A stretch of DNA of 64,000 bases from a bacterium (GTDB lineage: Bacteria; Patescibacteriota; Microgenomatia; UBA1400; UBA12108): assembly GCA_021788365.1 (NCBI GenBank), contig JAJYKS010000003.1, positions 73,810 through 137,809 of the forward strand, read 5' to 3'. Positions 29,037 to 48,943 of the stretch are shown in pieces; the first letter of the stretch is position 1; each line of letters opens with the position of its first letter. Position numbers and translations under genes: made by a program. The notes under the pieces were generated by a model, which was given only the letters and a program-made list of their open reading frames with translations, was not told the origin of the DNA and ran no database searches.

Positions 29037-29112
29037 GGTGGGCCAGCCTGGACTCGAACCAGGAACCTTGAAGGTATAAGCTTCCTGCGCTAACCAATTG
29101 CGCCACTGGCCC
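29037..29112 (-). tRNA. tRNA-Ile (anticodon TAT as read)
   Basis: Manual cloverleaf: acceptor GGGCCAG/CTGGCCC, D-arm GCGC/GCGC, anticodon loop CTTATAC, T-arm CCTGG-TTCGAGT-CCAGG; the 3' CC is encoded. Confidence 0.6.
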
Positions 29113-33985: not shown

Positions 33986-34070
33986 GGAGGAGTCGCCTAG
34001 CGGCTATGGCACAGCATTGGAAATGCTGCGTGCGCAAGCACTCGCGGGTTCGAGTCCCGCCTCCTCCGCC
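33986..34070 (+). tRNA. tRNA-Ser (anticodon GGA), class II with a long variable arm
   Basis: Manual cloverleaf: acceptor GGAGGAG/CTCCTCC, discriminator G, anticodon loop TTGGAAA, 16-nt variable arm, T-arm GCGGG-TTCGAGT-CCCGC. Confidence 0.8.
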
Positions 34071-34120
34071 TTTGTTCTTACTTCGGCGGACAGGTCCGCA
34101 GGAAGGGTATAATTAGCGGT

Positions 34121-34744
34121 ATGCAACTTTTATTCGACGCGACCGATTTTGAGGCGCCATACACAAATCTTGTGTTCCCTGGCAAGGCAGAAGATGAAAA
34201 GCTCCTGTATGTGACCCGCGAAGCACCGCTTGTGCTGTCTGTACGCCTTACAACGTTTTTCTTGATTGTTGCTCTGGGAATGGTGGCAGGTTCTATTATG
34301 CTTTCATATACGGGGAAGCTCATCGGATTTGATACGACTATGATCGTGCTCCTCCTCCTGCTCCTTGGTGCCGTTGTTATTTTTGGCGGATTGTGGTGGA
34401 TATGGCAGGTGTACCGTAAGACCGTGTTTATTATTACCACCCGTCGCCTTACCAAATTTATCCATACGACTCCATGGACACGGTATCAGATGTCACTCGG
34501 CCTTGATAAAGTGGTCGACTCTGCTGCCTATAGCAAGGGCTATGTGCAGGCAATGTTCGGCCTCGGTACGTTTGTCGCGCGTTCCTCGGCCGGAAATATC
34601 AAGAACTTTAAGATTGAGAACATCCACTATGCCGAAGATCTCCACAACTGGATGAACAAACTCATGTTTACCTTTAACAAAGAAATAGAGAAGTTGGACC
34701 AAATGAAGCCATTTGTGGCAAAGCCAATGGGGAAACGGGATTAG
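34121..34744 (+). CDS. hypothetical membrane protein (possibly bacterial PH-like/DUF304-type)
   Basis: 207 aa; two TM helices followed by a soluble domain. Confidence 0.45.
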   Translation: MQLLFDATDFEAPYTNLVFPGKAEDEKLLYVTREAPLVLSVRLTTFFLIVALGMVAGSIMLSYTGKLIGFDTTMIVLLLLLLGAVVIFGGLWWIWQVYRKTVFIITTRRLTKFIHTTPWTRYQMSLGLDKVVDSAAYSKGYVQAMFGLGTFVARSSAGNIKNFKIENIHYAEDLHNWMNKLMFTFNKEIEKLDQMKPFVAKPMGKRD

Positions 34745-34791
34745 GTCGTAGCATAAATCGTAGGCTGTAGAATTGGGAGCAGAGGAGAGAC

Positions 34792-36564
34792 ATGGCAACG
34801 GATCAGGTAGAACTCGTCAAAAGTAAAACAGATATCGTACAAGTCATTGGTGAGCGGGTGACTCTTAAGCGAGCGGGGCGGCATTTCAAGGGACTCTGCC
34901 CCTTCCATTCGGAGAAGTCGCCGTCGTTTATAGTTTCTCCCGAGCGGCAGAGCTTCAAGTGTTTTGGCTGCCAAGAGGGGGGTGATGCGATCGCTTTCTT
35001 ACAAAAATACGACGGCATGAGTTTTTTTGAGGCGCTTGAGTCTTTGGCAAAACGGGCAGGGGTAACGCTCGAGGACTACCGTCCTTCTGCAGCCGATTCT
35101 GAGCGGAAGCGACTCCTTTCCCTTCTATCACTTGCAGCAGAGTATTACCATTATCTGCTCACCAAACATGAGAGCGGGAGAGTGGCGCGTGAGTACCTCA
35201 AAAAGCGTGGGATAACGAATGAAGCGATTTCCCAGTTTTATCTCGGATTTGCTCCAGCACAGTGGCGGAGTGTGTCTGACTTTCTTATCAAGAAAAAGCA
35301 GTACACTCCCCAGGAGCTTGAAAAAACCGGTATGGTCATACGGCAAGAGCGGTCCACTGGGTACTACGACCGGTTCCGTGGGCGGGTTATGTTCCCTCTA
35401 AAAGACCACAAAGGGGTGGTGGTGGGGTTCTCCGGCCGTACGCTCTCTTCGGACACAACGGAAGCCAAGTATATCAATTCACCCGAGACTAGCCTCTATA
35501 GCAAGGGGCGAATGCTTTATGGCCTGTGGGAAAACCGCGAGGCAATACGCAAGGCTGACCAACTCGTACTTGTTGAAGGCGAGCTCGATGTTATCCCATC
35601 GTGGCAGGCTGGGGTAAAACAGGTGGCGGCTATAAAGGGGAGTGCGTTTACCTCCGAGCAGGCGCAGCTCGTGTCTCGCTATACCAAGAACGTCGCGATA
35701 TCACTTGACGCAGATGCTGCGGGACAGGAAGCTATAAAAAGAGCGGTGATAGTTGCAGAACCACTTGACATGAGTATAAGAGTTGTACAAGTGACGGGAG
35801 GGAAGGACCCCGGCGAGGTGGCCAGTGCGAATCCTCGTGCGTGGCGGGAGCAGGTTGCCCGGGCAGCTCTTTACTGGGACTTTCTTTTGGATAGCGCAAT
35901 TGCTCGTCATGATCCGGACAGTGGCGAGGGGACGAGTGCCATCTCGCGTGAGGTAGTGCCAGCTATAGCGGGAATTAGCAATCTGGTCATGCGTGCACAT
36001 TATGTTGGTGAGCTAGCCGCGCGTCTTCATGTTCCGGAGACAAGTATTTATGACGAAATTACGCGTCTAGCCAAACGACGAGAGCTGTCGACGCTCAAAG
36101 AAACGGTAGCAAAGATAGAACGGGGGGCGACAAATCGACGGGAAGAGCTATCTTTATATGTTCTTTCTCTGGCGCTGCAATACTACGACGCCCTCCATGA
36201 ATTTTTTGGAGTGGTACAGAAGACTTGGTTTTCCCATCCTGCCGCCGCCAAGCTCTTTGCCGCTTTGACCGACTGGGATACGAAGCAGCCATTTACCATA
36301 CAGGCTTTTGCCACAAAACTACCTCCAGAGCTCGCACCAACGCTCGACGAATGCTACCTCCGAGACCTCTCTATTCAGGCAGATGAGGCAGTAAAAGAAT
36401 GGCAACACAGCAGTGTGGAGCTTGAGATTTTGGCCATTCGTGATCGACAAAAGGCGCTTGCCTCCGAGATTGCAAAAGCAGAGAGCGGTACGAGTGGGGA
36501 GACTCTCCTGCCACTTCAAGAAGAGTTCTCCCGCCTGTCTCGCCGCTTGTCCGAGATTACGTAA
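34792..36564 (+). CDS. dnaG: DNA primase
   Basis: CHC2 zinc finger ([11 protein letters not shown]...[13 protein letters not shown]), TOPRIM region (LVEGELDV), 590 aa; upstream of rpoD. Confidence 0.85.
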
Positions 36565-36605
36565 TCTCAAGTATCTGGTATACTACGAGACCAGCGTGCG
36601 GTATC

Positions 36606-37925
36606 ATGGAGGAGTACATGGCAACAAAAAATTCTAAGGCTAGATCACAGAAAAAATCACCGACACGTGTGGCGAAGAAGGTCGCGCCTTTGCGGGCAAA
36701 AAAAGCGATTCCTAAAAGCGTGGCAAAGAAGCCTGCTAAGAAAGCAGCAAAGACTTCAAAGATTTTGTCCTCTAAAACACCCAAAATACTTCCTGCGGTG
36801 CGGCACGCTGCCACCCCAGAAATCCCTGGTCAGGCAATGTCGGACGCACGCCGAAAAAAAGTGCGGGAACTCGTTCTTCATGGTATGAGTCAGGGATATG
36901 TTACCCAAGATGATATCTTTATCCTGTTCCCCGATGCTGAAGATCACATACCCGAACTTGACGATCTTTACGACGAACTTTTGCAAAAGGACATTGACGT
37001 ATTCGAGAGTACCGCCGAGACGCCAGAGGAAGTGGAGGCACGGGCGACCAGTGACCTCGAGAAAGAGCTCGAAGTGTTGTCTACCCTCGATTCGCGCTCT
37101 ATTTCTGACCCTGTCCGTATGTATCTTCGCGAGATTGGACGTATCCCGCTCCTGACGCGCGACCAAGAGATCGAGCTTGCGCAAAAGACGGAAGCAGGAG
37201 ACCAGCGGGCGAAAGACAAACTTACTTCGTCTAATCTGCGACTTGTCGTCTCTATTGCGAAGAAATACATTGGTCGTGGCATGAGCTTCCTGGATCTTAT
37301 ACAGGAGGGGAATAAGGGACTCATACGGGCAGTTGAGAAATACCAGTGGAAGAAGGGATTCAAGTTCTCGACGTACGCGACGTGGTGGATACGCCAGGCT
37401 ATTACCCGTGCCATTGCCGACCAGGCACGTACCATCCGCATACCCGTGCACATGGTGGAGACTATAAACAAGCTGATCCGGGTATCACGCAAGCTCATGC
37501 AGACTCTCGGTCGGGAGCCGACACCCGAAGAGATAGCAGAGAAGATGGAGATCTCTACAGACAAAGTACGAGAGATATTGAAGATTTCGCAAAAGACTAC
37601 TAGTTTGGAGACCCCCATTGGTGACGACGAGGATAGCTATCTCGGCGACTTTATCGAAGACACAAAACAGGCCTCGCCGTATGAGCTTACCTCGCAGCGG
37701 CTACTTCGCGAGAATATTGAAGAAGTTCTATCCGGCCTCTCCGATCGCGAATCAAAAGTGCTCGAGATGCGGTTTGGACTGCGGGGAGCTAAGCCGATGA
37801 CCCTCGAAGAAGTGGGGCGGGAGTTTGGCGTCACCCGCGAGCGTATCCGACAGATTGAAGCCAAGGCTCTACGCAAACTCAAGCATCCCAGCAAGCGACG
37901 CATGCTGCAGGACTACCTCGACTAA
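36606..37925 (+). CDS. rpoD: RNA polymerase sigma-70 factor (primary sigma)
   Basis: Lys/Ala-rich N-terminus; regions 1.2-4 ([16 protein letters not shown]...[41 protein letters not shown]); alternative start at 36618. Confidence 0.85.
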
Positions 37926-37963
37926 GTCGAGAGATTCACGATTTAAGATTCAAGATTCACGAA

Positions 37964-38254
37964 TCATTTTCGGCGGGAGCGGCTGCTGCTCTTTTTTGGT
38001 GGTTCGGCGATGAGTGACAGCTTCTCTTTGGCAAATACGAAGAGGTACAGGATCTCGAGTATGCCGAGTGTGTTTATGACCAGAAGGGCGACGAACCAAT
38101 AGCGCTGATCATTTCTCGCGCTTTTCCACAGTGCTAGACCTTTCCACACAAACGTCCAGAGCAGGATGAGGATGAGCCAGCCGCCACCCATGAAAGGTGA
38201 GCCGAGACCCCAGCCGCTGTGCATCATGTCCCAATTGTTCCAGTAGTTCATCAT
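37964..38254 (-). CDS. hypothetical small membrane protein
   Basis: 96 aa; two hydrophobic helices; basic C-terminus. Confidence 0.4.
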   Translation of the reverse strand: MMNYWNNWDMMHSGWGLGSPFMGGGWLILILLWTFVWKGLALWKSARNDQRYWFVALLVINTLGILEILYLFVFAKEKLSLIAEPPKKSSSRSRRK

Positions 38255-38344
38255 AGCGTCTCCTTTTGCCTCGAGGGCAGTTCGTTTAGCGTGTTATAAT
38301 TTCCAGTGTAGCACAACCGTGCTGGTTGACAATTGAATAACCGA

Positions 38345-38420
38345 TCCCCTGTAGCTCAGTCGGTAGAGCGCCTCGCTGTTAACGAGGATGTCGCAGGTTC
38401 GAGCCCTGCCGGGGGAGCCA
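38345..38420 (+). tRNA. tRNA-Asn (anticodon GTT)
   Basis: Manual cloverleaf: acceptor TCCCCTG/CGGGGGA, D-arm GCTC/GAGC, anticodon loop CTGTTAA, T-arm GCAGG-TTCGAGC-CCTGC, encoded CCA. Confidence 0.85.
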
Positions 38421-39995
38421 AATTGGATTGGCTGGTCGCAAAGATGGGTTTTTGATCAATAGTTCCGTGTATTTTTGAGGTTCGAGCCGCTTCTTGTACT
38501 TTTCTTCCCATTTTTCGGGATTTTGTATAGCCAGAAAATGGTTTAACAGGTGTATCCGTATATTCTTATTGAAGTAGGTGAGGTTCGAACTGAGATCGAG
38601 TAGCAGCTTATGCTTTTCTTCTCTGGTTCCCGTCTTGAATTTGTGCTCTGCAGCGTAGGCTAGGTCAAGTGCATTTTCTATTCGCCTGCGATTATCGTCG
38701 AGATCCTGACTTGTGTTGGTTAGCTGCTGCTCCAGGGTATGTTTTTCACTCTCTAGCTTGCGTTTCTTCTCGTTGTATACAGCTTCGTCGATGTTATTTT
38801 CAAGACGCATATCCAAAAGGGTATTTAATTTGTTCTCTACGATTTGGAGAGCGCTTTGGCGTGAAGCCATGACGTTTTCTTGGAACAGGTGCTCGTCTTT
38901 ATGAGCGTATCTAAGCCATTTTTTGGCCCATTCGACAAACTCTTGGGGTGGGCGAATGGAAAGTAATACTTCTTTGATTTGGTCATTGAGCTCAGATTCC
39001 GTTATCGGTTTTTGATTACAGCGAGGGAACCGTCTTTTCTTCGAGCAATGATAGTAAGTGTATATGGCGGTACGATTGGTTTTTTTGTAATGCTTGGGTT
39101 TACGGCTAGCGGTAATAGAGCACCCACATTCTTCACAACGCATGAGTCCGGTTAAGTTAAACAAATGTGATCTCCTAATCGGCTTGCCGAGTTTGCCGAG
39201 CATGCGTTGAATGATGTCGAATTCGACTCTGGTAATCATTGCTTCATGTTTACCTTGAATCCAATGTCCTGATTGCGCTGGCCACTCGTATTCTCCGTAG
39301 TAGAAGGGGTTATTGAGTATATTGTAAAAAGTAGAGCCGGAGAGTTTACCTCCTTGTTGTCCGGTGAGTTTCCATTCGTTGCGTGCCATTAGCCATACGT
39401 CGCAAGCTTGTGAACCTGCGAGAATTTCGTGGAAGCATCGTTTTACGAGCGCGAACTTGAGCGGGTCATTTTTTATGGTTTTATATCCTTTGGCAAGTTC
39501 GGGTGTGTTGATGTAGCCTAATGGAGCTACGGTAGGGTACCAGCCCATTTCGGCTTTTTGTTTCATGCCTCTTACAACATCAACTCCTTTTTTATCGTTC
39601 TCATACTTGGCTTGGATCATACAGAATGCCAGCCACATTTTGTCATTGGGGTTGTTGAGGAAAGTTTGGGAGGGGGTGATAATGCGGATCAGCAGTTTTC
39701 TATCCATGAGGTCGATAATTCGAGCGGAGTCTACCGGGTTACGGGAGAGACGATCAGCGTGCCATACCATTATGGTGTCGACCTCCCCGTTTTCTATTAG
39801 CTCCATGAGCCTGTTAAACTGCTCTCGTCGCCCGGAGATTTTGGCGGATTTAGATTCGTAGAGCTCAATTCTTTCTTTGGGGAGATCAGGTGTTCTTTCG
39901 GCTAGTTTGTTCATTTCTTCCATTTGTGCCGGAATGGAAAGCATTTGCCGATCTTCTGTTTCACTGGATTTACGTGCGTAAATTGCATATTTCAT
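38379..39995 (-). CDS. large serine recombinase (resolvase/invertase catalytic domain + recombinase domain + zinc ribbon)
   Basis: 538 aa; N-terminal YARKSSETEDRQMLSIPAQ with the catalytic Ser; recombinase domain; CEECGC...CSKK zinc ribbon; C-terminal coiled coil; the last about 14 codons read into the tRNA-Asn 3' half. Confidence 0.8.
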   Translation of the reverse strand: MKYAIYARKSSETEDRQMLSIPAQMEEMNKLAERTPDLPKERIELYESKSAKISGRREQFNRLMELIENGEVDTIMVWHADRLSRNPVDSARIIDLMDRKLLIRIITPSQTFLNNPNDKMWLAFCMIQAKYENDKKGVDVVRGMKQKAEMGWYPTVAPLGYINTPELAKGYKTIKNDPLKFALVKRCFHEILAGSQACDVWLMARNEWKLTGQQGGKLSGSTFYNILNNPFYYGEYEWPAQSGHWIQGKHEAMITRVEFDIIQRMLGKLGKPIRRSHLFNLTGLMRCEECGCSITASRKPKHYKKTNRTAIYTYYHCSKKRRFPRCNQKPITESELNDQIKEVLLSIRPPQEFVEWAKKWLRYAHKDEHLFQENVMASRQSALQIVENKLNTLLDMRLENNIDEAVYNEKKRKLESEKHTLEQQLTNTSQDLDDNRRRIENALDLAYAAEHKFKTGTREEKHKLLLDLSSNLTYFNKNIRIHLLNHFLAIQNPEKWEEKYKKRLEPQKYTELLIKNPSLRPANPIWLPRQGSNLRHPR

Positions 39996-40060
39996 GTTTT
40001 CCTTTCAAGGTAAATAAAAGCATTTAATGAGTTATATAGCTACCATAAAGGGAAGTAGGA

Positions 40061-40104
40061 GTTACTTTATAGTTACTTTTCCTATAGTTACTATAGTTAC
40101 TATA
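40061..40104. repeat. four tandem copies of a TAGTTACT-type unit (iteron/arm-site-like) upstream of the integrase gene
   Basis: gttactttatagttacttttcctatagttactatagttactata; a related pair gtagttatttgtagttata occurs at 43374-43395. Confidence 0.5.
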
Positions 40105-40432
40105 TTGGTATTTCCTCCGGATTAACTGACATGAGTGGCTCGTAGGGGAGGTCTAGCCTGCGAAACTCGTCATAGATTTTTTCTTCAATAGCTTGCCACA
40201 GTTCCTTATCTTCGAAATAAACAACTTTCATCCAATATGGACCTGTGGGAATAGACGGTGGTTCTATCTGGATTTTCTCTTGAAAACGAGGATGTGTGAA
40301 TTGAGACTTCTGTATCCGTATTCCGTGTATCCTTAATCCTCCGATAAGGATGTCGGCACGTGCTATTACGCTAGTTTTTTTGGTTACCGGTCTGACCGAT
40401 ATGTCTTGCAGGTCGTAAATGTTGAGTGTCAT
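40100..40432 (-). CDS. hypothetical protein (weak SpoVG-like resemblance)
   Basis: 110 aa; pattern IxVRPV...IARADILIGGLRIHGIRI loosely recalls SpoVG; not secure. Confidence 0.35.
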   Translation of the reverse strand: MTLNIYDLQDISVRPVTKKTSVIARADILIGGLRIHGIRIQKSQFTHPRFQEKIQIEPPSIPTGPYWMKVVYFEDKELWQAIEEKIYDEFRRLDLPYEPLMSVNPEEIPI

Positions 40433-40453
40433 CTTTCATCTCCTTTCGTACTT

Positions 40454-40681
40454 TTAATCTTTTTCCATGAACGCGTGCAGTGCATGAGTAAGCTGTTCGG
40501 TTGTTTTGTACACACCCTCGTTTGTAAGACCGTGTTGGTAGGCAACACGCAGCTTAAATATGATTTCTGAGCTTTTTGCCGTCTGGATGAAATGGTAAAT
40601 GCGTTTGATTTTGCGGGATCTGATAGATTGGATCGTGCCGGTAGGATCAATGGCTTGAATGGCGATTTGAGGAGGTTTCAT
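40454..40681 (-). CDS. hypothetical small protein
   Basis: 75 aa; start ATG overlaps the stop of the upstream 49-aa ORF (ATGA). Confidence 0.35.
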   Translation of the reverse strand: MKPPQIAIQAIDPTGTIQSIRSRKIKRIYHFIQTAKSSEIIFKLRVAYQHGLTNEGVYKTTEQLTHALHAFMEKD

Positions 40682-40827
40682 TGTTTCAACTCCGATGGTT
40701 TGGTGACTAGCTCTACAAAGTTGAATAACTTGTTTGCGTATTCGGAAGCTTCCTCAAAGGACAATATAACCCCGTATAGTTTTTTGTAGATGTCCTGGTA
40801 TTCGATCACAGCTTCTCTAGGTAGCAT
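40679..40827 (-). CDS. hypothetical small protein (49 aa, not in the ORF track)
   Basis: Reverse strand ATGCTACCTAGAGAAGCTGTGATCGAATACCAG... gives MLPREAVIEYQDIYKKLYGVILSFEEASEYANKLFNFVELVTKPSELKQ; stop overlaps the downstream start; begins 1 nt after the upstream stop. Confidence 0.3.
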
Positions 40828-40828
40828 G

Positions 40829-41074
40829 TCATAATCCTTGGTGAAGCCTCGTTTTTAATTCGTTTATGGCGTCAATGACTGCTTTGGTGGGAAGTACAAG
40901 TTTGCCATTCCAATGCTGCTCTATAAGGTTGTTGGCTTGTAAAGGAGAGATGTCGAAGTGGAACAGGTATGTTTTGCTGTCTATTGGTTCCAGGTGGGTA
41001 AGTGTGGCGCCGGCTGCACGAAGACATGCGCTTAGGTAGAAATCGCGTGATTGAAAAGTTATTCCATTGTTCAT
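40829..41074 (-). CDS. hypothetical small protein (possibly DUF5659-like)
   Basis: 81 aa; DFYLSACLRAAG...YLFHF...LKTRL pattern. Confidence 0.35.
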   Translation of the reverse strand: MNNGITFQSRDFYLSACLRAAGATLTHLEPIDSKTYLFHFDISPLQANNLIEQHWNGKLVLPTKAVIDAINELKTRLHQGL

Positions 41075-41149
41075 TATGCTCTCGACTTTATGTCAAAAGC
41101 ATAGGACTAAATACCACAGTAAAAGTTTAGAAAAAGTGTTGGAAACTGT

Positions 41150-41887
41150 CTATTTTAGGAGTTTTTCGATGGGCTCGTTTGACATAACGTAGGTTAGTAG
41201 GTCTTTGTGAGTGAAGAGGCTTGAAAGATAGTCATTTAGCCTTGTTACGCGGGTGTCCATGTCTTTATATGTCATTTCTTGGAACATGATGTCTTCTGGA
41301 TCAAATTTGCTTCTAATCCTCTCCAAGAGCTTAATGTTTTTCCTTGCTTTGCCGGATTTTGAGTATGTTGTGACTAGATTGTAGATTTGGCGAATAGACA
41401 AATCCACCGAAAGTGTTTTCTTGTTGATTTGGATTTTGTTGACGGGAAGAGTATCGAGTTGATCTTTTAAAGCCTTGTTTTTTCTGATCAATTCTGCCAG
41501 TTCTGTTCGTGACATTTGTTCGTTTACCGTAATGGTCACTTTTCCGTTTCCTTTCGTACTTGAGATTGGAGGTATGCATACCCGATGTTTCACGAGCGGC
41601 AGTCCTATGAGTAGAGCAGTGATTGTTGTTGTCCAATTCCACGCGAGATTTAGTCGGCTGGTTAGTAAGATGGCGATATTGATAAGTCGCTTGTGGTCGA
41701 TATTGCGAAATGCGTCGGAATCAGTTGCTATTCCATCCACGGGTATGCCGCATGCTTTTCTGGTTTTGGATATAACTATTTGGAAAGTTGGGATTTCCAT
41801 GAGTAGAAAAAAATACTTTTTTTCGCCCGGTGTGAATTCAATCTCATTGGGATCTGTTGGTTTAGCAAACTTGATATTCATTTTCAT
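41150..41887 (-). CDS. hypothetical protein
   Basis: Trimmed to MKMNIKFAKP (ATG at 41885-41887); 245 aa; no motif recognised; could be a replication/regulatory protein of the element. Confidence 0.45.
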   Translation of the reverse strand: MKMNIKFAKPTDPNEIEFTPGEKKYFFLLMEIPTFQIVISKTRKACGIPVDGIATDSDAFRNIDHKRLINIAILLTSRLNLAWNWTTTITALLIGLPLVKHRVCIPPISSTKGNGKVTITVNEQMSRTELAELIRKNKALKDQLDTLPVNKIQINKKTLSVDLSIRQIYNLVTTYSKSGKARKNIKLLERIRSKFDPEDIMFQEMTYKDMDTRVTRLNDYLSSLFTHKDLLTYVMSNEPIEKLLK

Positions 41888-41895
41888 GTACGTAC

Positions 41896-42108
41896 ATTTT
41901 ACTCTGGTTGAAGACCCATAGGCTATGCTACAATCGTTTTGTTCGCCTAAACCTCGAGTAATCGAGGCATGGTGAGAAATACCGCTACAGAACGAGGGAG
42001 CTCCTCGTTTAGGTGCTGTAGCGGTCGCATCTCGAAAGGGGTGTGGGTGGCGCAAGCCACTGCCTAGCGGGGAGCTTTTTGTAGCTCCTAGCCTAGGGTT
42101 AGGAGATC
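41896..42108 (+). promoter_or_regulatory. extended -10 promoter (TTGAAG ... TGcTACAAT) plus an about 185-nt structured leader with three hairpins and alternative pairings, ending in an AGGAGA RBS
   Basis: Hairpins CCTCGAGTAATCGAGG, GCTACAG-aaCGAGGgagctCCTCG-tttaggtg-CTGTAGC and GGAGCTttttgtAGCTCC; CCTAAAC can alternatively pair with GTTTAGG. Confidence 0.4.
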
Positions 42109-42891
42109 ATGCTACTAGACCGTAAGAAGATAGGACATTATTTCGCAGAAGCAGTAAAGATACTGGTGGCTTCTGTCATTGTTATCTATTTGGTCTTTAC
42201 AGCCCTCCATTCCAGTGACAAAGTTGCTGATGTCCCATCACCAGCCCCAGCTAGTAATACATGTATCCGACAATCCCCATACCCATTAAAGCCGGAGTTT
42301 GACCGTGTGCTGAGCCTACTGCTGCAGCGATATCAACAAGCTAACTCTCCCCAATATGCCACTTTCTCTATAATGCGAAATTGTCTTGACGTGCAGTTTG
42401 CTGACCTTGGTAATCAAGGAGCCGAGGGAGTATTCTATTTTGATCAAAAACTGTCTAATCCTCAACGTCTATTGATTGAGGTTGATTCCAAATACTCGTC
42501 CACCGATGATCTTACGACGGCTTTTCTATTGTCACACGAGATGGCTCATGCCAGGCAATATGTCGAAAGTACAAGTAGTAATAAGCAGTGGGGCTGTGTT
42601 GATGCTGAGGTGGATGCGTTCTATTCCCAACTTCTGTTTGGTGCCATGCTTAACAAAGAGGAAAGTAGTTCAATTGTTTCGAGGCTAGAGCGAGGATCCA
42701 ACAACAGCCAACTGAAAGAATATGAGCATCTATTGGACGTCAGCTACACGGCGATCGGTGAGTGTCGAAGTGGCAATAGCGCTCAAGGCAAGGTTGATAC
42801 AGTTTGTTACAAAGACAAATTGTACAAAGCAATGCGTGCCGAAATTGTCTCAAATCCGTTTTACCAAGAAGAATGCAAAGGGGACCTGTGA
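42109..42891 (+). CDS. membrane-anchored HExxH zinc metallopeptidase-like protein
   Basis: 260 aa; N-terminal TM; HEMAH motif (LSHEMAHARQY); no further family assignment. Confidence 0.55.
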   Translation: MLLDRKKIGHYFAEAVKILVASVIVIYLVFTALHSSDKVADVPSPAPASNTCIRQSPYPLKPEFDRVLSLLLQRYQQANSPQYATFSIMRNCLDVQFADLGNQGAEGVFYFDQKLSNPQRLLIEVDSKYSSTDDLTTAFLLSHEMAHARQYVESTSSNKQWGCVDAEVDAFYSQLLFGAMLNKEESSSIVSRLERGSNNSQLKEYEHLLDVSYTAIGECRSGNSAQGKVDTVCYKDKLYKAMRAEIVSNPFYQEECKGDL

Positions 42892-42915
42892 TCTACTACA
42901 TAATCTTCATACCCA

Positions 42916-43067
42916 TGGTACTTGGGATCGCTTATTATCTTTGGTCGGCTAAATATCCGGAACTTGGAGAGAAACTCGAAGAGAGACTTGAACCAGTGGT
43001 ACAGTTCTGCGGATACTGTCTGGGGATCGGAATTATCCTTGTTCTTTTATGGGGAATGTTTTCGTAA
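42916..43067 (+). CDS. hypothetical small hydrophobic peptide
   Basis: MVLGIAYYLWSAKYPELGEKLEERLEPVVQFCGYCLGIGIILVLLWGMFS; start ambiguous (the track ORF starts earlier in an overlapping frame). Confidence 0.3.
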
Positions 43068-43450
43068 GGAGATTGGCATCAGTCTTCATATACTAGGGAT
43101 ATAGGAGGCATGGTTTAGTGCATTTTGTTGCTCACGGGGCCACCTGAGGGTGTAACGCCTCGTAAGGATTTTTTGGTGCGGACATTGTCTTATCGACAAA
43201 ACATTGCCCCAAGAGCCTTTAAGCGGCCAAACACATAAATTTGCCTTTTATGTGTGTGTTTCCTCTGAAAACCTTTAGTATCCTTAAGTTTGTCCAGAAA
43301 ACATGGAATACTTTTGAATCGTTGATCTTGGCAGAACGTATATTTTTAGTTAGCGACTTGAGTAATAGTTGTAGTTATTTGTAGTTATATTTCTGGTTAC
43401 CTTGAGCATCCTTGAGTTATTTAGTCTATGATACCCTCAATAGTTGATGG

Positions 43451-45244
43451 TTAAAGTTGATTTTTATCTCTAAGTCTCCGATATAGTTCTGCAACCCATG
43501 GCGAATAGTGTTTTGTCTGAAATACTAAATGTAGCTCATATTTTGCCCTGGTTACCCCCACATAAAACAATCTTCTCGCTTCATACATGTCTTCGGAATT
43601 ATCCGGTTCGTATTGATTCGGGAAATGGCCTTGGTTCATATTGAACAGAATCACAATATCAAATTCTCTGCCTTTTGAACTGTGAAGCGTACTTAGATTG
43701 AGTCTTCCCTCATTAGTCATGTGACCCGAAAATTGCAGTAGAGATAGGTCCGAGTTATTCATGGAGCCATCAGTCCTTTGTATCATCGTATCAATTGTTG
43801 ACCAATCATCGATTTTTGTTTTAGCTAATGCAAGCCATGGTGTAATTAACTCTTCTTTAAATTTTAATAGCCAATCATGAGTTGAGCCTGTTGAGTTTAT
43901 AGTCTTGTGTAGAAATCCCAAAAGGGTGGTTTCTATGTATCTTTGTTCTTCTCTAGAGATTGTATGTCCGTATACTAGTCTGATTGCCTCGGTGGTGAGA
44001 TGCTGGAATGATGGACTTGCGTTTTTCCATCCGCCCGTAATCCATGATGAGCATGCTTCAATGAACCGAGATAATCGATTGTTTCTTAGGATTAGTGCAT
44101 TTCTGTCTGCACGAATAACAGGAATATTCTGGGATGCTGCAATTGAGGATAGTAAGTCTCCATCTTTAGAGTCACGATAAAGTACGGCGATTTTTTCAAG
44201 CGGTACTCCATTTTCACTTAGCTTAGGTATTAACTCTTTGATTACATAATTTGCTTGTTCTGTGAGATTTCCATCAACTTTGTCAAAGGATATCAATCCT
44301 TTGCTCGTTCCTGAAGGAGCTTTGTGGTTTCGATCTTGACCAAGTGCAGAGTTGGACGCTTCAATAATGCTTGTTCCACATCTGTAATTAAAAGGAAGTT
44401 GTATAGTTTTAACTTGTGGGTAAGTGGTTAGGCTCTTTAATAGTTCAGGATTTGCGCCAGTAAACCGATAGATTGATTGATCTGGATCCCCGACCGCGAA
44501 AAGTCGAATATTCGATTTGAAGCAGAGTTGTAATACTAATTCATGTAGAGCGGTGCCAAGATCCTGATATTCGTCAATAAAGAGTACTGGGTATTTTGCA
44601 TGCATTGCCTCCCTTATCCACTCGTTTTCGATTACTAATCTAGCTGCTAACAATGGCATGTCTTCAAAATCAATTAGACCATTTTTGCGAAGATCATTTT
44701 CATACGAGTTGATAATCGCAATAATGCCCTTATCCTGATTATTCCAATTTTCGCTATTTCTATTGACTACTGTTCGCCTTATTAATTCAGCAGTTTTCCA
44801 TGTGTTGTTTTGTATTATCGGTTTTCCAGTAACGACTTGAAAAGAATTTAGCTTAGACTGTTTTGTTTGCTGAAGCGTAGCTATTTGAGGTTCTATTGGA
44901 AAATCCTTGTAAACACATCTTGCATAGGGCAATATGATCTGCGAATATGCAAAGCTATGTACTGTTCCAATAAAAATTCTATCACTTGGCTCTATTCCTA
45001 TTTTCAGTAGTTTTCCTTCTAACTCTAGTGCACACTCGTTGTTATATGTTACACAAGCAATTCCCCGCGGCTCTACAACATCGTCTAATAATGCGCGCGC
45101 AATTGCTGTTGTAAGCGTTCTTGTTTTTCCACTGCCTGGACCGGCTAAAACTACACAGTGTCCTTTTTCCTGAACTGCCTCAATTTGCTGAGGGTTGCCA
45201 TCCATTTCTTCGAGCGTTTGTTGAAAAAGACTACGACTGGACAT
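43451..45244 (-). CDS. gajB: UvrD/PcrA-like superfamily 1 helicase, Gabija GajB-like
   Basis: 597 aa; Q-motif/Walker A VVLAGPGSGKTRTL, Walker B FIDEYQD, motifs III-VI; start overlaps the upstream OLD-family gene by 14 nt. Confidence 0.7.
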   Translation of the reverse strand: MSSRSLFQQTLEEMDGNPQQIEAVQEKGHCVVLAGPGSGKTRTLTTAIARALLDDVVEPRGIACVTYNNECALELEGKLLKIGIEPSDRIFIGTVHSFAYSQIILPYARCVYKDFPIEPQIATLQQTKQSKLNSFQVVTGKPIIQNNTWKTAELIRRTVVNRNSENWNNQDKGIIAIINSYENDLRKNGLIDFEDMPLLAARLVIENEWIREAMHAKYPVLFIDEYQDLGTALHELVLQLCFKSNIRLFAVGDPDQSIYRFTGANPELLKSLTTYPQVKTIQLPFNYRCGTSIIEASNSALGQDRNHKAPSGTSKGLISFDKVDGNLTEQANYVIKELIPKLSENGVPLEKIAVLYRDSKDGDLLSSIAASQNIPVIRADRNALILRNNRLSRFIEACSSWITGGWKNASPSFQHLTTEAIRLVYGHTISREEQRYIETTLLGFLHKTINSTGSTHDWLLKFKEELITPWLALAKTKIDDWSTIDTMIQRTDGSMNNSDLSLLQFSGHMTNEGRLNLSTLHSSKGREFDIVILFNMNQGHFPNQYEPDNSEDMYEARRLFYVGVTRAKYELHLVFQTKHYSPWVAELYRRLRDKNQL

Positions 45245-47018
45245 TGTTTGAAATATACTCCAGAGCTACTTTTATGTATTCTGGCGGATTCAGGCCGATA
45301 CTTGCTTCGGAGAGTTTCCCAGCGAGCCTACCTTTTCCTATGTCAGAAATCATGGATAGTAACTGCTCTCCATTTATTGGACTCTCTCCATTTTTCCATG
45401 ATTCAATTCTTTGCTGTCTGACTGATCCAAAATTCTGTGCTTGAATGACCTCGAGAAGGGCGGTTCCTAATTCAGGAGTTTCTGCGACTTCGATTTCTAA
45501 AGTTGAGTTATTGCAAAATATACCATTTTCCATCCCTAAGCTTTTTAGTTTCTCTTCATCATTTGATAATTCTTGTTTTTCTGTTTCTGACATTTGCTCT
45601 TCATTTTTGAGTTCATTATTTAACTGGATTAACGAGAGTAGCCTATTAATACCTAGTGGTTGTTTGCCAGTAAGAGGATCCCAGTCTGTGATGATGCAAA
45701 AAGGAAGAGATAGCGATCTGGCGAGACGAACATAAGGGTCAAAGTTGACCCCGCCAACATTACATACGCTAATACCTAGGTCATCGAGATTTATGTTTAG
45801 GGTTTTGGAGAAAACAGGCATAAGAGCTTCTTCAGCGTCTCCTTCAACAAAAATAACACCTTTGGCAAACAAAATCTCTGCTCGAGTAGTATCCAAGTAT
45901 CTTTGTAAATCTTCCATCAACTCTGGCTGTAGAGCTAAACTTGCCAAGGAATGTCCTACGGTACCAAGCCCGTTTTCTTGTTTTAACACTACGATGGAGT
46001 TGAGTTGAGCAACACTCGCAATATTGGGTGAATGGGTGGTCATCAACAGACATAACGGTTCGTCTTTACTACTTTCAAAGAGCTTCTTAAAAACAGTTCG
46101 CTGAAGGTGTGGATGCAGATGTGCTTCTGGTTCCTCTATACACATTATCGTAAAATTTTGATCATTTTTTGTTCTAAGCCATTCGTATTCTGCTAACTTA
46201 AGGGTAAGGAGAACAAGATTTGCCGAGCCGAGGCTGGCATCGGATATTCCTCGTTTTCCATTGTCAATTAGCATGCGTACTGATCTGAATAATCGTTGCG
46301 GATTTGTTGGTGCAATGCCAAATTTAGCGTTTACATCGTTCATGGGGCCAGTAAGCGTCGAAATTTTGGAAGTGAGAGATGATTCCAAATCTTTAATGGA
46401 AGTGATGTTCGTTACTTGGGCAGTTGCATCTTCAACATTTTTTGCTACTTCTATAATTGTTTCTTTGGGAACTTTGCTAATGGCATCATCTAATAGTGGT
46501 CGAAGTGGAGAAGTTTGCCAGTTTCCGAGTTCTGTTTCAGCATCTCTGAGTGCATGTAAAATTTCAATGCATATTTTGTTTCTAACACTATTGGAAATAC
46601 CACCTCTGGATTCGTCACCCGCACCATAAACTTTAAATTCATAATCTGTTTCGGACTGCGCTTCCCCTGATACTTCTGGTTTTTTCCGATATACATAGCT
46701 TAATCTAGAAATTGTGTGGTCTTCAGCAAGTCTGTAGTCGGTTAGGAGGGCTAGTATTGCTTCATCACTATCAAAATCTGAAAAATCGAGATGTATTTCC
46801 ACTGTTGGGTTAGGATCGGTACATTCATCCCAAATATCCGTTTGCTTAAGTTGTCTAGCTGAGTCAGGTAGTGAAGCGTCTAAAACTAGCCTTAGCGCAA
46901 ATAGAAAATTGCTTTTACCGACTCTATTTTCGCCAACTATTACGGTATTTCCGCTTAGAGGAATGTCAAGCGATTTGAAGTTTCTAAAGTTTTTTATTTG
47001 AACTCTGGATAGTCTCAT
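45231..47018 (-). CDS. gajA: OLD-family ATPase-TOPRIM nuclease, Gabija GajA-like
   Basis: 595 aa; RecF/ABC-like N-terminus (MRLSRVQIKNFRNFKSL, Walker A GENRVGKSN, IEEPEAHLHP Walker B/H-loop) and C-terminal TOPRIM (FVEGDAEE, ITDWD). Confidence 0.75.
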   Translation of the reverse strand: MRLSRVQIKNFRNFKSLDIPLSGNTVIVGENRVGKSNFLFALRLVLDASLPDSARQLKQTDIWDECTDPNPTVEIHLDFSDFDSDEAILALLTDYRLAEDHTISRLSYVYRKKPEVSGEAQSETDYEFKVYGAGDESRGGISNSVRNKICIEILHALRDAETELGNWQTSPLRPLLDDAISKVPKETIIEVAKNVEDATAQVTNITSIKDLESSLTSKISTLTGPMNDVNAKFGIAPTNPQRLFRSVRMLIDNGKRGISDASLGSANLVLLTLKLAEYEWLRTKNDQNFTIMCIEEPEAHLHPHLQRTVFKKLFESSKDEPLCLLMTTHSPNIASVAQLNSIVVLKQENGLGTVGHSLASLALQPELMEDLQRYLDTTRAEILFAKGVIFVEGDAEEALMPVFSKTLNINLDDLGISVCNVGGVNFDPYVRLARSLSLPFCIITDWDPLTGKQPLGINRLLSLIQLNNELKNEEQMSETEKQELSNDEEKLKSLGMENGIFCNNSTLEIEVAETPELGTALLEVIQAQNFGSVRQQRIESWKNGESPINGEQLLSMISDIGKGRLAGKLSEASIGLNPPEYIKVALEYISNNVQS

Positions 47019-47078
47019 AGTTGTATTTTACTCTTCTGGAGATAGACTTACATAAATTGGTCATAATTAGGCTAAAAT

Positions 47079-47558
47079 ATGGTTATGGATTCACAGACGG
47101 TAATAAGCTATGTGCTTGGGGCTATTTCTGGCTTGGCACTGGCTGTTCTCAAAACCGTTCCAAAGATTGTCGAGGATATTTGGACTGATCATCGCGAGGC
47201 TCGAAAAGCGATAAAACTAGATAAAAACAATCTTGTTAGCCAGTTGCTATACGACCTGCCAAAAGGAAAGGCTCAAGATTTTTACTATACTACCGTTAAG
47301 AAAAGTGATGGGGAACACATCGTTGCTCGAATGTCGAAGTATGACAAGAAAATGGCACAACAGATTGACGCGTACCTTGATCTCTGGAGGCACTATGCCA
47401 CCTCAAAACGTTTAATTGACGATAACCATGAAATTGTCCTGATGGATGAGTACGATGAACCGGTTTCTAAAGGGCCGTTATACGTTGAAGGGTTGCTAGA
47501 CAGACTTTGCAAGGAGTATGGTTCGATAATTGACCTCTTGAACAAATGGAAGGTTTAA
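47079..47558 (+). CDS. hypothetical protein with an N-terminal TM helix
   Basis: 159 aa; TM VISYVLGAISGLALAVL; no family recognised. Confidence 0.45.
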   Translation: MVMDSQTVISYVLGAISGLALAVLKTVPKIVEDIWTDHREARKAIKLDKNNLVSQLLYDLPKGKAQDFYYTTVKKSDGEHIVARMSKYDKKMAQQIDAYLDLWRHYATSKRLIDDNHEIVLMDEYDEPVSKGPLYVEGLLDRLCKEYGSIIDLLNKWKV

Positions 47559-47617
47559 GGGGCCTCTGTAATTCATAGTCGTAAGGATGGGGTAGAGTAG
47601 AGGAGAACGGCGTCCGA

Positions 47618-47642
47618 AATTGACTCTAGTACGGGGAGCAAG
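47618..47642. repeat. 25-bp direct repeat, copy A (AATTGACTCTAGTACGGGGAGCAAG)
   Basis: Identical 25-mer at 48541-48565; lies 65 nt upstream of the NTase-fold gene start. Confidence 0.6.
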
Positions 47643-47707
47643 CATTTTTACCTCTGGAAGTTGAAATGACCCGCATTGGAATAGAGAACTTCTGATAACA
47701 TGTATTC

Positions 47708-48502
47708 ATGTCTGAAACAAACTTAGTTGACGAGAAGCTGATACAAAATCCTGCTAAGAGCAAATTTGACAGTGTTTTGAGAAATATACAGGAACACCTT
47801 TTTGTTACTCCAGATAGTGTTGTATATCGGAACGTTATGAAGAATTGGCTTCAATCTACCAAAAATAAAGTTGGAGTTGATGATCTGGTATTTTTTCCTA
47901 CTGGGTCAGTGGCAGTGGGAATGGTTAGTATAGAAGCTGGAAGTGATATTGATGGAGTGGTTGTATACAGTTGTACTTCGGATAAAACTGACTCGGTTAG
48001 CACAGCTCTTGTAAACGTAGATTTACCAGAAGAATTTAATCCATTTTTGGTAATGTCTCGAGTAGAAAACAGGATTGAAGGTTTTTTTGAGCGAGTTGAT
48101 GATGTTCTTATGATGAATAGACCTAGCATGACAGATGAGATAGCGCTGCTGTTTGCTCCAAGCCTATCTGAGTTGAGTGATGAGGCAGAAAAGTCACTTG
48201 TTGATGGATGGAGAAAACAGGTTATCGCTAAACTTGCTTTGTTACCGGAAGGAAAAGGTGAGTTGGTGTGGGGCTTGATGTGTGGATGGCTTGAGAAGCA
48301 GTTTGTCCACTATGAGGAGAGTGATGGGGGCGACCAAGAGAAAAGAAAAATCCGAGTAGAGTCTGTGATTGACAAAAAGATTTCTGAAAGAATCTCAGAT
48401 GATGGTGAGCGAAGGGAGAGGGCAAAGACTTTTATTGATAGTCTTAGGAGTACTTTTCACTACCCGAGTTTTGATGAAATGGTACTAGCTTATTTCAACT
48501 AG
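47708..48502 (+). CDS. nucleotidyltransferase-fold protein (Pol-beta superfamily; minimal NTase/CD-NTase-like)
   Basis: 264 aa; TGSVAVGMVSIEAGSDIDGVVV matches hG[GS]-x(9-13)-DhDh including the GS-x3-G-x7-SDID spacing; acidic residues downstream; acidic C-terminal tail. Confidence 0.5.
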   Translation: MSETNLVDEKLIQNPAKSKFDSVLRNIQEHLFVTPDSVVYRNVMKNWLQSTKNKVGVDDLVFFPTGSVAVGMVSIEAGSDIDGVVVYSCTSDKTDSVSTALVNVDLPEEFNPFLVMSRVENRIEGFFERVDDVLMMNRPSMTDEIALLFAPSLSELSDEAEKSLVDGWRKQVIAKLALLPEGKGELVWGLMCGWLEKQFVHYEESDGGDQEKRKIRVESVIDKKISERISDDGERRERAKTFIDSLRSTFHYPSFDEMVLAYFN

Positions 48503-48540
48503 CTACATCAGACTGGTTTTGATGCCACGATTGCGTTCTG

Positions 48541-48565
48541 AATTGACTCTAGTACGGGGAGCAAG
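48541..48565. repeat. 25-bp direct repeat, copy B
   Basis: Same 25-mer as 47618-47642; lies 100 nt upstream of the next gene start. Confidence 0.6.
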
Positions 48566-48664
48566 GCGTCTGAGAACTTATAATCTCAAGGCGTAATTTG
48601 GTAAAAATGACCTAGGTAGGTCAGTCTTCAGAGGTCACTCGGATAAGCCCTATAGTTTGTTTAT

Positions 48665-48943
48665 GTGATATACTGCTCGGTTATGCCAGAGACATTTAAG
48701 TGTTTTACGCTGTGTCCATATTTTGAGTGGGTGAGTGAAGATGGGCGTTCTGCATTTGTCCGATGCAAGGCACTCCCAGGTGGAACCGAATTTGAGGTGA
48801 TACCGGCAGGCGACTCTGCACCGGAGTTTTTTGAGGGTGTTAGAGAAGGGAAAGATATGAAACTCCCATATCCCTGCCAGGTGGTGGAGCCAACATTGAT
48901 TACCACAATTGCTTTATATATTTCTAATAAGAACAAAGATTGA
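48665..48943 (+). CDS. hypothetical small protein (Cys-rich N-terminus)
   Basis: 92 aa; stop overlaps the start of the HTH gene (ATGA). Confidence 0.35.
   Translation: MIYCSVMPETFKCFTLCPYFEWVSEDGRSAFVRCKALPGGTEFEVIPAGDSAPEFFEGVREGKDMKLPYPCQVVEPTLITTIALYISNKNKD

What the first reader, a model, noticed from the sequence alone, without database searches (positions are those of the whole stretch)
43451..47018. Gabija-like two-gene defence module (OLD ATPase-TOPRIM + UvrD helicase) on an integrated element
An OLD-family protein (ABC-like ATPase with Walker A GENRVGKSN and EEPEAHLHP, plus a C-terminal TOPRIM with FVEGDAEE and ITDWD) is followed, with a 14-nt overlap, by a UvrD/PcrA-like SF1 helicase. 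This class 2 OLD plus UvrD-partner arrangement is the GajA/GajB architecture of Gabija. It sits inside a tRNA-inserted island with other defence-like cargo. If the genome really is a small-genome symbiont-type lineage, such an abortive-infection/nuclease system would be notable there.
Basis: partly seen in the sequence, partly recalled or inferred. Interest (0 to 1): 0.65.

Follow-up and report, generated by a model that had tools for sequence, protein, structure and literature searches.

The report
Gabija defence genes in a CPR bacterium
Two overlapping genes encode a standard Gabija anti-phage system (an OLD-type nuclease and its helicase partner), carried on a small mobile island next to a tRNA gene in an ultra-small Microgenomates (CPR) bacterium; it is a real but ordinary member of a very common defence family.

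Summary
ORF 45231-47018 (-) is a 595-aa OLD-family ATPase-TOPRIM protein. ORF 43451-45244 (-) is a 597-aa UvrD/PcrA/Rep-like SF1 helicase. They overlap by 14 nt. Both match PADLOC Gabija profiles end to end (GajA 6e-225, GajB 5e-220). Housekeeping UvrD/PcrA/Rep/RecF models score far below their cut-offs. All seven nuclease residues defined in the Burkholderia class 2 OLD structure are present and invariant among homologues, as are the ATPase and helicase motifs.

The host is a Microgenomates/Collierbacteria-like CPR bacterium; its RpoD is 88-89% identical to named members. The genes lie on a low-GC island (41.5% against 50%) next to tRNA-Asn, beside a large serine recombinase. Strains with 96-98% identical RpoD lose homology exactly at the tRNA 3' end and carry other cargo there. 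That cargo includes CBASS, RhuM/PDC-S05 and another OLD protein, so the site is a defence hot-spot.

No other gene on the island matches a defence profile. A published survey already records Gabija in about 2% of Microgenomatia genomes. Verdict: a new member of a known kind, of modest interest. Anti-phage activity and mechanism are inferred from homologues, not shown.

The parts
45231..47018 (-). gajA: class 2 OLD-family nuclease, 595 aa, with an N-terminal ABC-type ATPase and a C-terminal TOPRIM plus helical domain
   Evidence: PADLOC GajA PDLC00070 at 6e-225, covering residues 1-593 of 595. Pfam AAA_15 plus OLD-like_TOPRIM. The C-terminal region matches BpOLD 6nk8 at 1e-45 and B. cereus GajA at 3e-24. 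K35, E295/E296, H329, E392, E396, D445, D447, T506, E508 and K562 are invariant in 14 homologues. In a Foldseek search of the AF2 model, the top hits are GajA structures; the C-terminal region superposes on 6nk8 with TM 0.88 and rmsd 2.6 A.
43451..45244 (-). gajB: UvrD/PcrA/Rep-like SF1A helicase-fold protein, 597 aa, overlapping gajA by 14 nt
   Evidence: PADLOC GajB PDLC00117 at 5.2e-220, covering residues 1-594. Pfam UvrD-helicase plus UvrD_C. Housekeeping equivalogs score far below their cut-offs. Motifs I, II, III, V and VI are intact. The partner helicases of the two closest GajA relatives are 73% and 58% identical, tracking the GajA identities of 80% and 62%.
38345..38420 (+). tRNA-Asn(GTT), the integration target; the left island border is at its 3' core GGGGGAGC (38411-38418)
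   Evidence: ARAGORN and Rfam both call the tRNA. Homology to sister-strain contigs L085, L087, L091, L090 and L092 stops at 38418-38425.
38379..39995 (-). Large serine recombinase (538 aa), the likely integrase of the island; its last 14 codons are read from the complement of the tRNA
   Evidence: Pfam Resolvase, Recombinase and Zn_ribbon_recom; PHROG 95 integrase at 1.4e-67. A 56%-identical homologue sits in the same position next to tRNA-Asn in L005.
38419..48885 (.). Low-GC variable island, about 10.5 kb, absent from the 98%-identical strain L091; the Gabija genes lie inside it
   Evidence: GC is 0.415 against 0.503 and 0.509 in the flanks. In L091 backbone homology ends at 38418 and resumes at 48886; in L085 it resumes at 48530.
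48866..48900 (.). Right-end attachment-site remnant: a degenerate copy of the tRNA-Asn 3' end (CCCTGCCAGGTGGTGGAGCCAACATTGATT)
   Evidence: Compared by eye with tRNA 38397-38425, and with the L091 right junction ACGGGGAGC|CAACATTG.
47610..47642 (.). First copy of a 33-bp direct repeat ending in the att core GGGGAGC; possible right end of the Gabija-bearing module (38419-47639)
   Evidence: the repeat finder family D2, 91% identical copies 923 bp apart. The core context is shown, and the same 33-mer is at the homology boundary in L085.
48533..48565 (.). Second copy of the 33-bp repeat, closing a 0.9-kb single-gene module (the 264-aa ORF 47708-48502)

Best explanation
This is an intact two-gene Gabija anti-phage system, made of a class 2 OLD nuclease (GajA) and its UvrD-like partner (GajB). 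It is carried as cargo on a roughly 10-kb integrative element. A large serine recombinase probably inserted that element at the 3' end of tRNA-Asn in a Microgenomates (Collierbacteria-like) CPR bacterium.

Shown here:
- family membership of both proteins;
- intact ATPase, two-metal TOPRIM nuclease and helicase motifs;
- an operon-like 14-nt overlap;
- location on a strain-variable, low-GC island.

Inferred from studied homologues (PMC10781630, PMC10568477, PMC6755086):
- GajA tetramerises and binds two GajB dimers into a 4:4 complex.
- On phage infection the TOPRIM site nicks or degrades DNA by two-metal catalysis.
- DNA ends activate NTP hydrolysis by GajB.
- Together these stop phage replication, possibly at the cost of the infected cell.

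The protein is much closer to the Burkholderia and Xanthomonas class 2 OLD enzymes than to Bacillus cereus GajA. The Burkholderia and Xanthomonas enzymes are ATPase-active, non-specific nucleases that are little affected by nucleotides. B. cereus GajA is a site-specific nickase inhibited by ATP. The nucleotide-depletion trigger described for the Bacillus system may therefore not apply here.
For: - PADLOC gives full-length GajA at 6e-225 and GajB at 5.2e-220.
- Pfam gives the matching architecture.
- PDB sequence hits are class 2 OLD C-terminal regions (6nk8 1e-45, 6njv 1e-37) and GajA (3e-24).
- The BpOLD catalytic residues E400/E404/D455/D457/T506/E508/K562 (PMC6755086) correspond to E392/E396/D445/D447/T506/E508/K562, all invariant in alignment A1.
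- The best Foldseek matches to the AF2 model are GajA structures.
- The adjacent overlapping helicase is the defining class 2 arrangement (PMC6755086; PMC10568477).
- The gene pair is conserved in the nearest relatives, and GajA and GajB identities fall in parallel.
- For the island: GC 0.415 against 0.50, a serine recombinase, and sister strains with CBASS, PDC-S05 or other cargo at the same site.
Against: - There is no functional evidence: no phage challenge, no expression data, and no promoter or terminator signal above background.
- Complex formation and trigger are extrapolated from B. cereus proteins that share only about 17-19% identity over structural alignments.
- The AF2 model is of middling confidence in the ATPase insert (pLDDT below 50 at residues 84-101 and 144-173).
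- No truly empty tRNA-Asn site was recovered, so integration is inferred from replacement polymorphism rather than from a clean insertion.
Confidence: 0.87

Rival explanations
1. The pair is a housekeeping DNA-repair module: a RecF/SMC-like ATPase with the cell's own UvrD/PcrA helicase, not a defence system.
For: The helicase's best solved-structure sequence hits are Rep, PcrA and UvrD (1e-43 to 1e-36). The ATPase N-terminus weakly matches RecF and Rad50.
Against: All housekeeping equivalogs score 4- to 6-fold below their cut-offs, while the GajA and GajB profiles match end to end at about 1e-220. The genes lie on a low-GC island missing from strains with 98% identical backbone, which is not expected for essential repair genes.
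Confidence: 0.02
2. It is a different OLD-type system rather than Gabija: a class 1 stand-alone OLD, PARIS AriA/AriB, retron Eco8-type or Septu PtuA.
For: PADLOC also lists Old (1e-39) and AriA (9e-37). NCBIfam lists the retron Eco8 effector and PtuA at 1e-15 and 1e-13. Foldseek also finds T. scotoductus OLD and retron Eco8.
Against: Those scores are 180 or more orders of magnitude weaker than the GajA score and cover only parts of the protein. The class 2-specific helical-domain residues T506, E508 and K562 are present. An overlapping UvrD-like gene follows. There is no reverse transcriptase, ncRNA, AriB or HNH gene nearby.
Confidence: 0.02
3. The system is a true Gabija but chiefly serves the mobile element, through stabilisation or exclusion of competing elements and phages at the same tRNA-Asn site. 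Any host protection would be a side effect.
For: It travels with a serine recombinase on the tRNA-proximal, presumably youngest, module. The same site holds alternative single defence cargos in sister strains. Related GajA genes occur on IMG/VR viral contigs.
Against: This is not distinguishable from host defence with sequence data alone. No replication or transfer genes of the element were recognised.
Confidence: 0.08
4. The genes are an inactive remnant, acquired by horizontal transfer and not expressed or not functional in a CPR cell.
For: GC (0.39-0.40) is far from the host's 0.50. No promoter-like site lies upstream of gajA.
Against: Both reading frames are full length against profiles of 596 and 604 positions. 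Every catalytic and nucleotide-binding residue tested is intact. The consensus promoter scan is not calibrated for CPR.
Confidence: 0.04

Closest known systems
Class 2 OLD nuclease plus UvrD-like helicase of Burkholderia pseudomallei and Xanthomonas campestris (PDB 6NK8, 6NJV; Schiltz et al. 2019, PMC6755086)
   Same: The C-terminal region matches at 1e-45 and 1e-37. The model superposes with TM 0.85-0.89 and rmsd 2.2-2.6 A at 34-40% identity. All seven metal-binding or catalytic residues are identical. The length (595 aa) and the overlapping downstream helicase gene are the same.
   Different: The host is a CPR bacterium rather than a proteobacterium. Full-length identity to proteobacterial homologues is only 52-58%. 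The biochemistry of this protein is untested.
Bacillus cereus VD045 Gabija GajA-GajB (PDB 8SM3, 8J4T, 8U7I and others; PMC10781630)
   Same: It has the same two-gene architecture and domain order. These are the top fold matches for the full-length model (E about 1e-23). The Walker A, Walker B, TOPRIM Glu and DxD motifs align.
   Different: Sequence similarity is weak (E 3e-24; about 17-19% identity over the structural alignment). The helicase here is about 100 aa longer than the 494-aa BcGajB, and its sequence scores higher against Rep, PcrA and UvrD than against BcGajB. BcGajA is ATP-inhibited, lacks ATPase activity and is site-specific, whereas the closer BpOLD is not (PMC10568477).
Defence hot-spots and tRNA-linked genomic islands, including the defence islands reported in CPR genomes from aquifers (PMC12259885)
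   Same: A fixed chromosomal site (the tRNA-Asn 3' end) holds different defence systems in close relatives: Gabija, type I-like CBASS, RhuM/PDC-S05 and another OLD protein.
   Different: A large serine recombinase accompanies the island here. The site also shows short repeats ending in the tRNA core GGGGAGC that bound single-gene modules. This arrangement has not been tied to a described element family.

Membership tests
Gabija (GajA/GajB) | [quoted passage not shown] | tested here: met
   Pfam AAA_15 (residues 1-334) and OLD-like_TOPRIM (383-447). PADLOC GajA PDLC00070 at 6e-225, full length.
Gabija (GajA/GajB) | A UvrD/PcrA/Rep-like SF1 helicase gene lies immediately downstream on the same strand, often overlapping | tested here: met
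   gajB 43451-45244 (-) overlaps gajA by 14 nt. PADLOC GajB PDLC00117 at 5.2e-220. Pfam UvrD-helicase plus UvrD_C.
Gabija (GajA/GajB) | Both proteins match Gabija profiles better than housekeeping or other defence profiles | tested here: met
   The next non-Gabija PADLOC hits are Old at 1e-39 and RTasHel at 8e-53. NCBIfam PcrA, Rep, UvrD and RecF all score far below their cut-offs.
Class 2 OLD nucleases | Two-metal active site: TOPRIM Glu, a second Glu, and DxD, plus Thr, Glu and Lys from the class 2 helical domain (BpOLD E400, E404, D455, D457, T506, E508, K562) | tested here: met
   E392, E396, D445, D447, T506, E508 and K562 align with the 6nk8 residues (numbering). They are invariant in 14 homologues.
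Class 2 OLD nucleases | Fold of the TOPRIM plus helical C-terminal region | tested here: met
   In the AF2 model, pLDDT is mostly 82-95 for residues 340-590. Foldseek against 6nk8 gives TM 0.88-0.89 and rmsd 2.6 A.
Gabija (GajA/GajB) | Intact nucleotide-binding motifs in both proteins (GajA Walker A, Walker B and H-loop; GajB helicase motifs I-VI) | tested here: met
   GajA has K35, E295/E296 and H329. GajB has GSGKT at 37-41, DEYQD at 224-228, GDPDQSIY, LHSSKGREF and YVGVTRAK, aligned with Rep and PcrA.
Gabija (GajA/GajB) | Assembly into a GajA4:GajB4 complex | not testable with these tools
   Known for B. cereus (PMC10781630). No multimer prediction or experiment is available here.
Gabija (GajA/GajB) | Protection against phage that depends on both genes | not testable with these tools
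   This needs an experiment, and the host is uncultivated.
Integrative element using a large serine recombinase | A recombinase with Resolvase, Recombinase and zinc-ribbon domains at one end of a strain-variable segment bounded by att-like sequences | tested here: inconclusive
   The recombinase domains are present. The segment is variable among strains. A degenerate tRNA 3'-end copy lies at 48866-48900, and repeats contain the GGGGAGC core. However, no empty site was found, and sister elements L085 and L091 lack a recombinase.

The most novel reading that the evidence does not exclude
The 3' end of tRNA-Asn in this Collierbacteria-like population may be a modular, cassette-like defence hot-spot. 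Short elements sharing arms that end in the tRNA core GGGGAGC would pile up in tandem and swap single defence cargos between near-identical ultra-small cells. The cargos seen are Gabija, CBASS, RhuM/PDC-S05 and OLD, and a large serine recombinase would do the swapping. This would be a compact 'pan-immunity' device in a genome of about 0.6 Mb or more. It would also put a BpOLD-type Gabija into a host that depends on a partner cell.
Probability: 0.3. Interest if true: 0.5.

Novelty: new member of a known kind. Interest (0 to 1): 0.3.

Why it matters
[quoted passage not shown] Its value is as a clean, fully intact, well-bounded case in a near-complete small genome. It shows that an ultra-small episymbiont-type bacterium spends about 3.6 kb on a nuclease-helicase defence system. 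It also shows that close strains keep different systems at the same tRNA-Asn site. That makes the locus a convenient place to study defence turnover in CPR populations, and a source of a BpOLD-type Gabija for biochemical comparison with the Bacillus model.

Tried and rejected
1. I first thought the element had inserted into the anticodon loop of tRNA-Asn, because homology to L005 breaks at window 38379/38380. This is rejected: the break in L005 is a 223-nt group I intron in that tRNA, not an element junction.
2. I looked for a long direct repeat of the tRNA 3' half at the right end. A 24-mer search allowing 3 mismatches found only the tRNA itself. Only a degenerate copy with a 3-nt indel exists, at 48866-48900.
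3. I searched JGI metagenome contigs for the predicted empty site (tRNA 3' end joined to CAACATTGATTACC) with two patterns. Neither gave a hit.
4. I looked for the recombinase, GajA and the 33-bp repeat in IMG/VR viral contigs. There are no close relatives. Only 52-53% identical GajA homologues turned up, on four viral contigs, plus one weaker partial match on a fifth.
5. I tested the other island ORFs (110, 75, 81, 129, 260, 159, 264, 86 and 121 aa) against Pfam, PADLOC and PHROGs. Nothing came up beyond a sub-threshold Peptidase_M91 hint for the 260-aa protein.
6. The 264-aa ORF here and the 263-aa ORF at the same position in L085 are not homologous.
7. The promoter and terminator scan around gajAB gave nothing above shuffled background.
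8. A literature search on the LOOT RNA found no usable text.
Full report
**Observation**

One runs 45231..47018 (595 aa) and the other 43451..45244 (597 aa). They share 14 nt, at 45231-45244.
- The quoted motifs are all present in the first protein: GENRVGKS at residues 29-36, IEEPEAHLHP at 294-303, FVEGDAEE at 390-397 and ITDWD at 443-447.
- The second protein has the SF1 helicase motifs AGPGSGKT, DEYQD, GDPDQSIY, LHSSKGREF and YVGVTRAK.
- Exactly the same two proteins, on the same flanking genes, occur in NCBI assembly GCA_027372535.1 (contig DAHXIW010000001.1, 579,774 bp). They also occur in a Logan assembly of run SRR13170411.

**What the two proteins are**

PADLOC profiles give end-to-end matches to GajA (PDLC00070, E 6e-225, residues 1-593) and GajB (PDLC00117, E 5.2e-220, residues 1-594). 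The next non-Gabija families are about 180 orders of magnitude weaker.

Pfam gives AAA_15 plus OLD-like_TOPRIM for the first protein, and UvrD-helicase plus UvrD_C for the second.

NCBIfam PcrA, Rep and UvrD score 180-200 bits against cut-offs of 911-1168. RecF scores 41 bits against 172.

Among solved structures, the C-terminal 225 residues of the OLD protein match two class 2 OLD nucleases:
- Burkholderia pseudomallei (6nk8, E 1e-45);
- Xanthomonas campestris (6njv, E 1e-37).

The whole protein matches B. cereus GajA at about 3e-24.

Schiltz et al. (PMC6755086) defined the class 2 active site as E400, E404, D455, D457, T506, E508 and K562. In the HMMER alignment these correspond to E392, E396, D445, D447, T506, E508 and K562 of the window protein. 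All of them are invariant in an alignment of 14 homologues at 52-80% identity, as are Walker A K35, Walker B E295/E296 and H329.

An AlphaFold2 model (mean pLDDT 74.8, high in the C-terminal half) finds B. cereus GajA structures as its best PDB matches (E about 1e-23). Its C-terminal region superposes on 6nk8 at TM 0.88 and rmsd 2.6 A.

A published review states that class 2 OLD proteins and GajA are the same thing (PMC10568477).

The helicase partner evolves in step with the nuclease. In the two nearest relatives whose context I fetched, the same overlapping or abutting pair is present. GajA identities are 80% and 62%, and GajB identities are 73% and 58%.

**Host**

The primary sigma factor next to the island (36618-37925) is 88-89% identical to two named proteins. 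One is from 'Microgenomates group bacterium GW2011_GWE1_47_12' and the other from 'Candidatus Collierbacteria bacterium RIFOXYA2_FULL_46_10'. Both belong to the Patescibacteria group, also called CPR.

The labels 'uncultured Pseudomonadales' on the nearest species representatives in the genome collection are not consistent with this, and I treat them as mislabels.

**Island**

GC is 0.503 upstream, 0.415 between 38421 and 48885, 0.46 up to 50119, and 0.509 beyond. gajA and gajB are at 0.40 and 0.39.

The left border is tRNA-Asn(GTT) at 38345-38420. Directly against it lies a 538-aa large serine recombinase with Resolvase, Recombinase and zinc-ribbon domains. It matches PHROG 95 integrase at 1.4e-67.

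Contigs from strains with 96-98% identical RpoD were fetched. L091 is 98.1% identical to the window over 34066-38418. It then carries 1.95 kb of unrelated DNA and rejoins the window at 48886 with 98.8% identity. L085 leaves at 38425 and rejoins at 48530 with 99.2% identity.

All sister contigs diverge right after the tRNA core GGGGGAGC. At the right end, the window has a degenerate copy of the tRNA 3' end (CCCTGCCAGGTGGTGGAGCCAA, then CATTGATT). L091 has ACGGGGAGC|CAACATTG at the same place.

Two 33-bp direct repeats (47610-47642 and 48533-48565) also end in GGGGAGC and enclose a single 264-aa gene. In L085 the same 33-mer and a similar left arm enclose an unrelated 263-aa gene.

I read this as tandem accretion of modules at tRNA-Asn, with Gabija in the tRNA-proximal module (38419-47639) alongside the recombinase. 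This step is inference, for two reasons:
- No clean empty site was found.
- The L085 and L091 inserts lack a recombinase.

**The site is a defence hot-spot**

Different relatives hold different cargo at the same position:
- L085 has a CBASS cyclase (PDLC00785, 1.6e-68) with a membrane effector (PDLC01057, 1.8e-21).
- L090 has RhuM/PDC-S05 (2e-143).
- L005 has a 56%-identical serine recombinase next to tRNA-Asn and a different OLD-family protein (Old PDLC02358, 1.8e-46).

By contrast, none of the other ORFs on the window's island matches PADLOC, PHROGs or an informative Pfam family.

**Mechanism**

Shown here: both proteins are intact members of the family, with every tested catalytic residue in place.

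Inferred from studied homologues:
- GajA forms a tetramer that binds two GajB dimers (PMC10781630).
- The TOPRIM site cleaves DNA by two-metal catalysis (PMC6755086).
- GajB is activated by DNA ends to hydrolyse (d)ATP and (d)GTP, and the outcome is abortive infection (PMC10568477).

There is one caveat. The review's Table 1 contrasts BcGajA with BpOLD. BcGajA does site-specific nicking, is strongly inhibited by ATP and has no ATPase activity. BpOLD has non-specific exo/endonuclease activity, negligible nucleotide effect and an active ATPase. The window protein is far closer to BpOLD. The nucleotide-depletion switch should therefore not be assumed.

**Novelty**

Gabija occurs in more than 15% of sequenced genomes (PMC10781630). 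More than 5,000 proteins match this GajA at E below 1e-20, and named matches at 52-65% identity include Bacteroidota, Myxococcota, Desulfobacterota-type and Proteobacteria proteins.

A groundwater survey reports that CPR genomes have few defence systems per genome but a high density of them. Its Fig. 3D source data list Gabija in 2.05% of Microgenomatia MAGs (PMC12259885).

The locus is therefore a new member of a known kind. The tRNA-Asn hot-spot with repeat-bounded modules is the only part that goes beyond routine annotation, and it is only partly established.

**Verdict**

Two claims need trimming: the extra defence cargo, and how notable the occurrence is. Interest is modest, at about 0.3.

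Noticed in passing
window 41944-42061 (+): Full-length match to the Rfam LOOT RNA family (RF03000, 80.1 bits against a gathering score of 46.4). It lies inside the island, 47 nt upstream of a 260-aa ORF (42109-42891) with a weak HExxH/Peptidase_M91-like hint. It was absent from the six related loci scanned.
   Followed up: partly
L005 3903-4125 (relative with 88% identical RpoD): The tRNA-Asn gene of this relative is interrupted in its anticodon loop by a group I intron (Rfam RF00028, 71.9 bits, full model). ARAGORN therefore missed the tRNA. The window's tRNA-Asn has no intron.
   Followed up: yes
window 47610-47642 and 48533-48565; L085 10445-10477: These 33-bp direct repeats end in the tRNA-Asn core GGGGAGC and bracket a single 264-aa gene. 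In L085 the same repeat and a similar left arm bracket an unrelated 263-aa gene. This looks like cassette exchange at an attachment site.
   Followed up: partly
L085 6687-8643; L090 11735-12757; L005 10131-12104: Sister strains carry other defence systems at the same tRNA-Asn site: a CBASS cyclase plus TM effector, RhuM/PDC-S05, and a second type of OLD-family protein next to a homologous serine recombinase.
   Followed up: yes
window 16745-18751, 19633-21549, 21855-24164 (+): Three paralogous ribonucleotide reductase large-subunit genes lie in tandem within 7.5 kb; only the third has an ATP-cone. This is unusual redundancy for a genome that appears very small.
   Followed up: no
window 29037-29112 (-); L009 2753-2829: A tRNA-Ile with anticodon TAT, uncommon in bacteria (which usually use a lysidine-modified CAT), is conserved in a related genome.
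   Followed up: no
window 47708-48502 (+): This 264-aa ORF has a GS...DxD pattern (PTGSVAVG...GSDIDGVVV) reminiscent of a minimal nucleotidyltransferase. It has no hit in Pfam, PADLOC or PHROGs.
   Followed up: partly
window 38379-38420: The serine recombinase gene ends inside the tRNA-Asn gene on the opposite strand. Its last 14 codons are the complement of the tRNA 3' half, and the L005 homologue also ends within the tRNA 3' half. This suggests that the attachment site lies within the 3' end of the recombinase gene.
   Followed up: partly
L095 (GCA_044228545.1, closest GajA at 80% identity): The nearest Gabija relative sits between a McrBC plus DNA methylase block and a type IV secretion / conjugation-like gene set (T4SS_pilin, TrbC, TraC-like, TraG). 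That is a different kind of mobile context from the window's.
   Followed up: no
Genome-contig loci L005, L006, L008: The nearest species-representative MAGs (RpoD 87-91% identical) are titled 'uncultured Pseudomonadales bacterium'. This conflicts with the Microgenomates/Collierbacteria affiliation of the same protein family, so the labels are probably wrong.
   Followed up: partly
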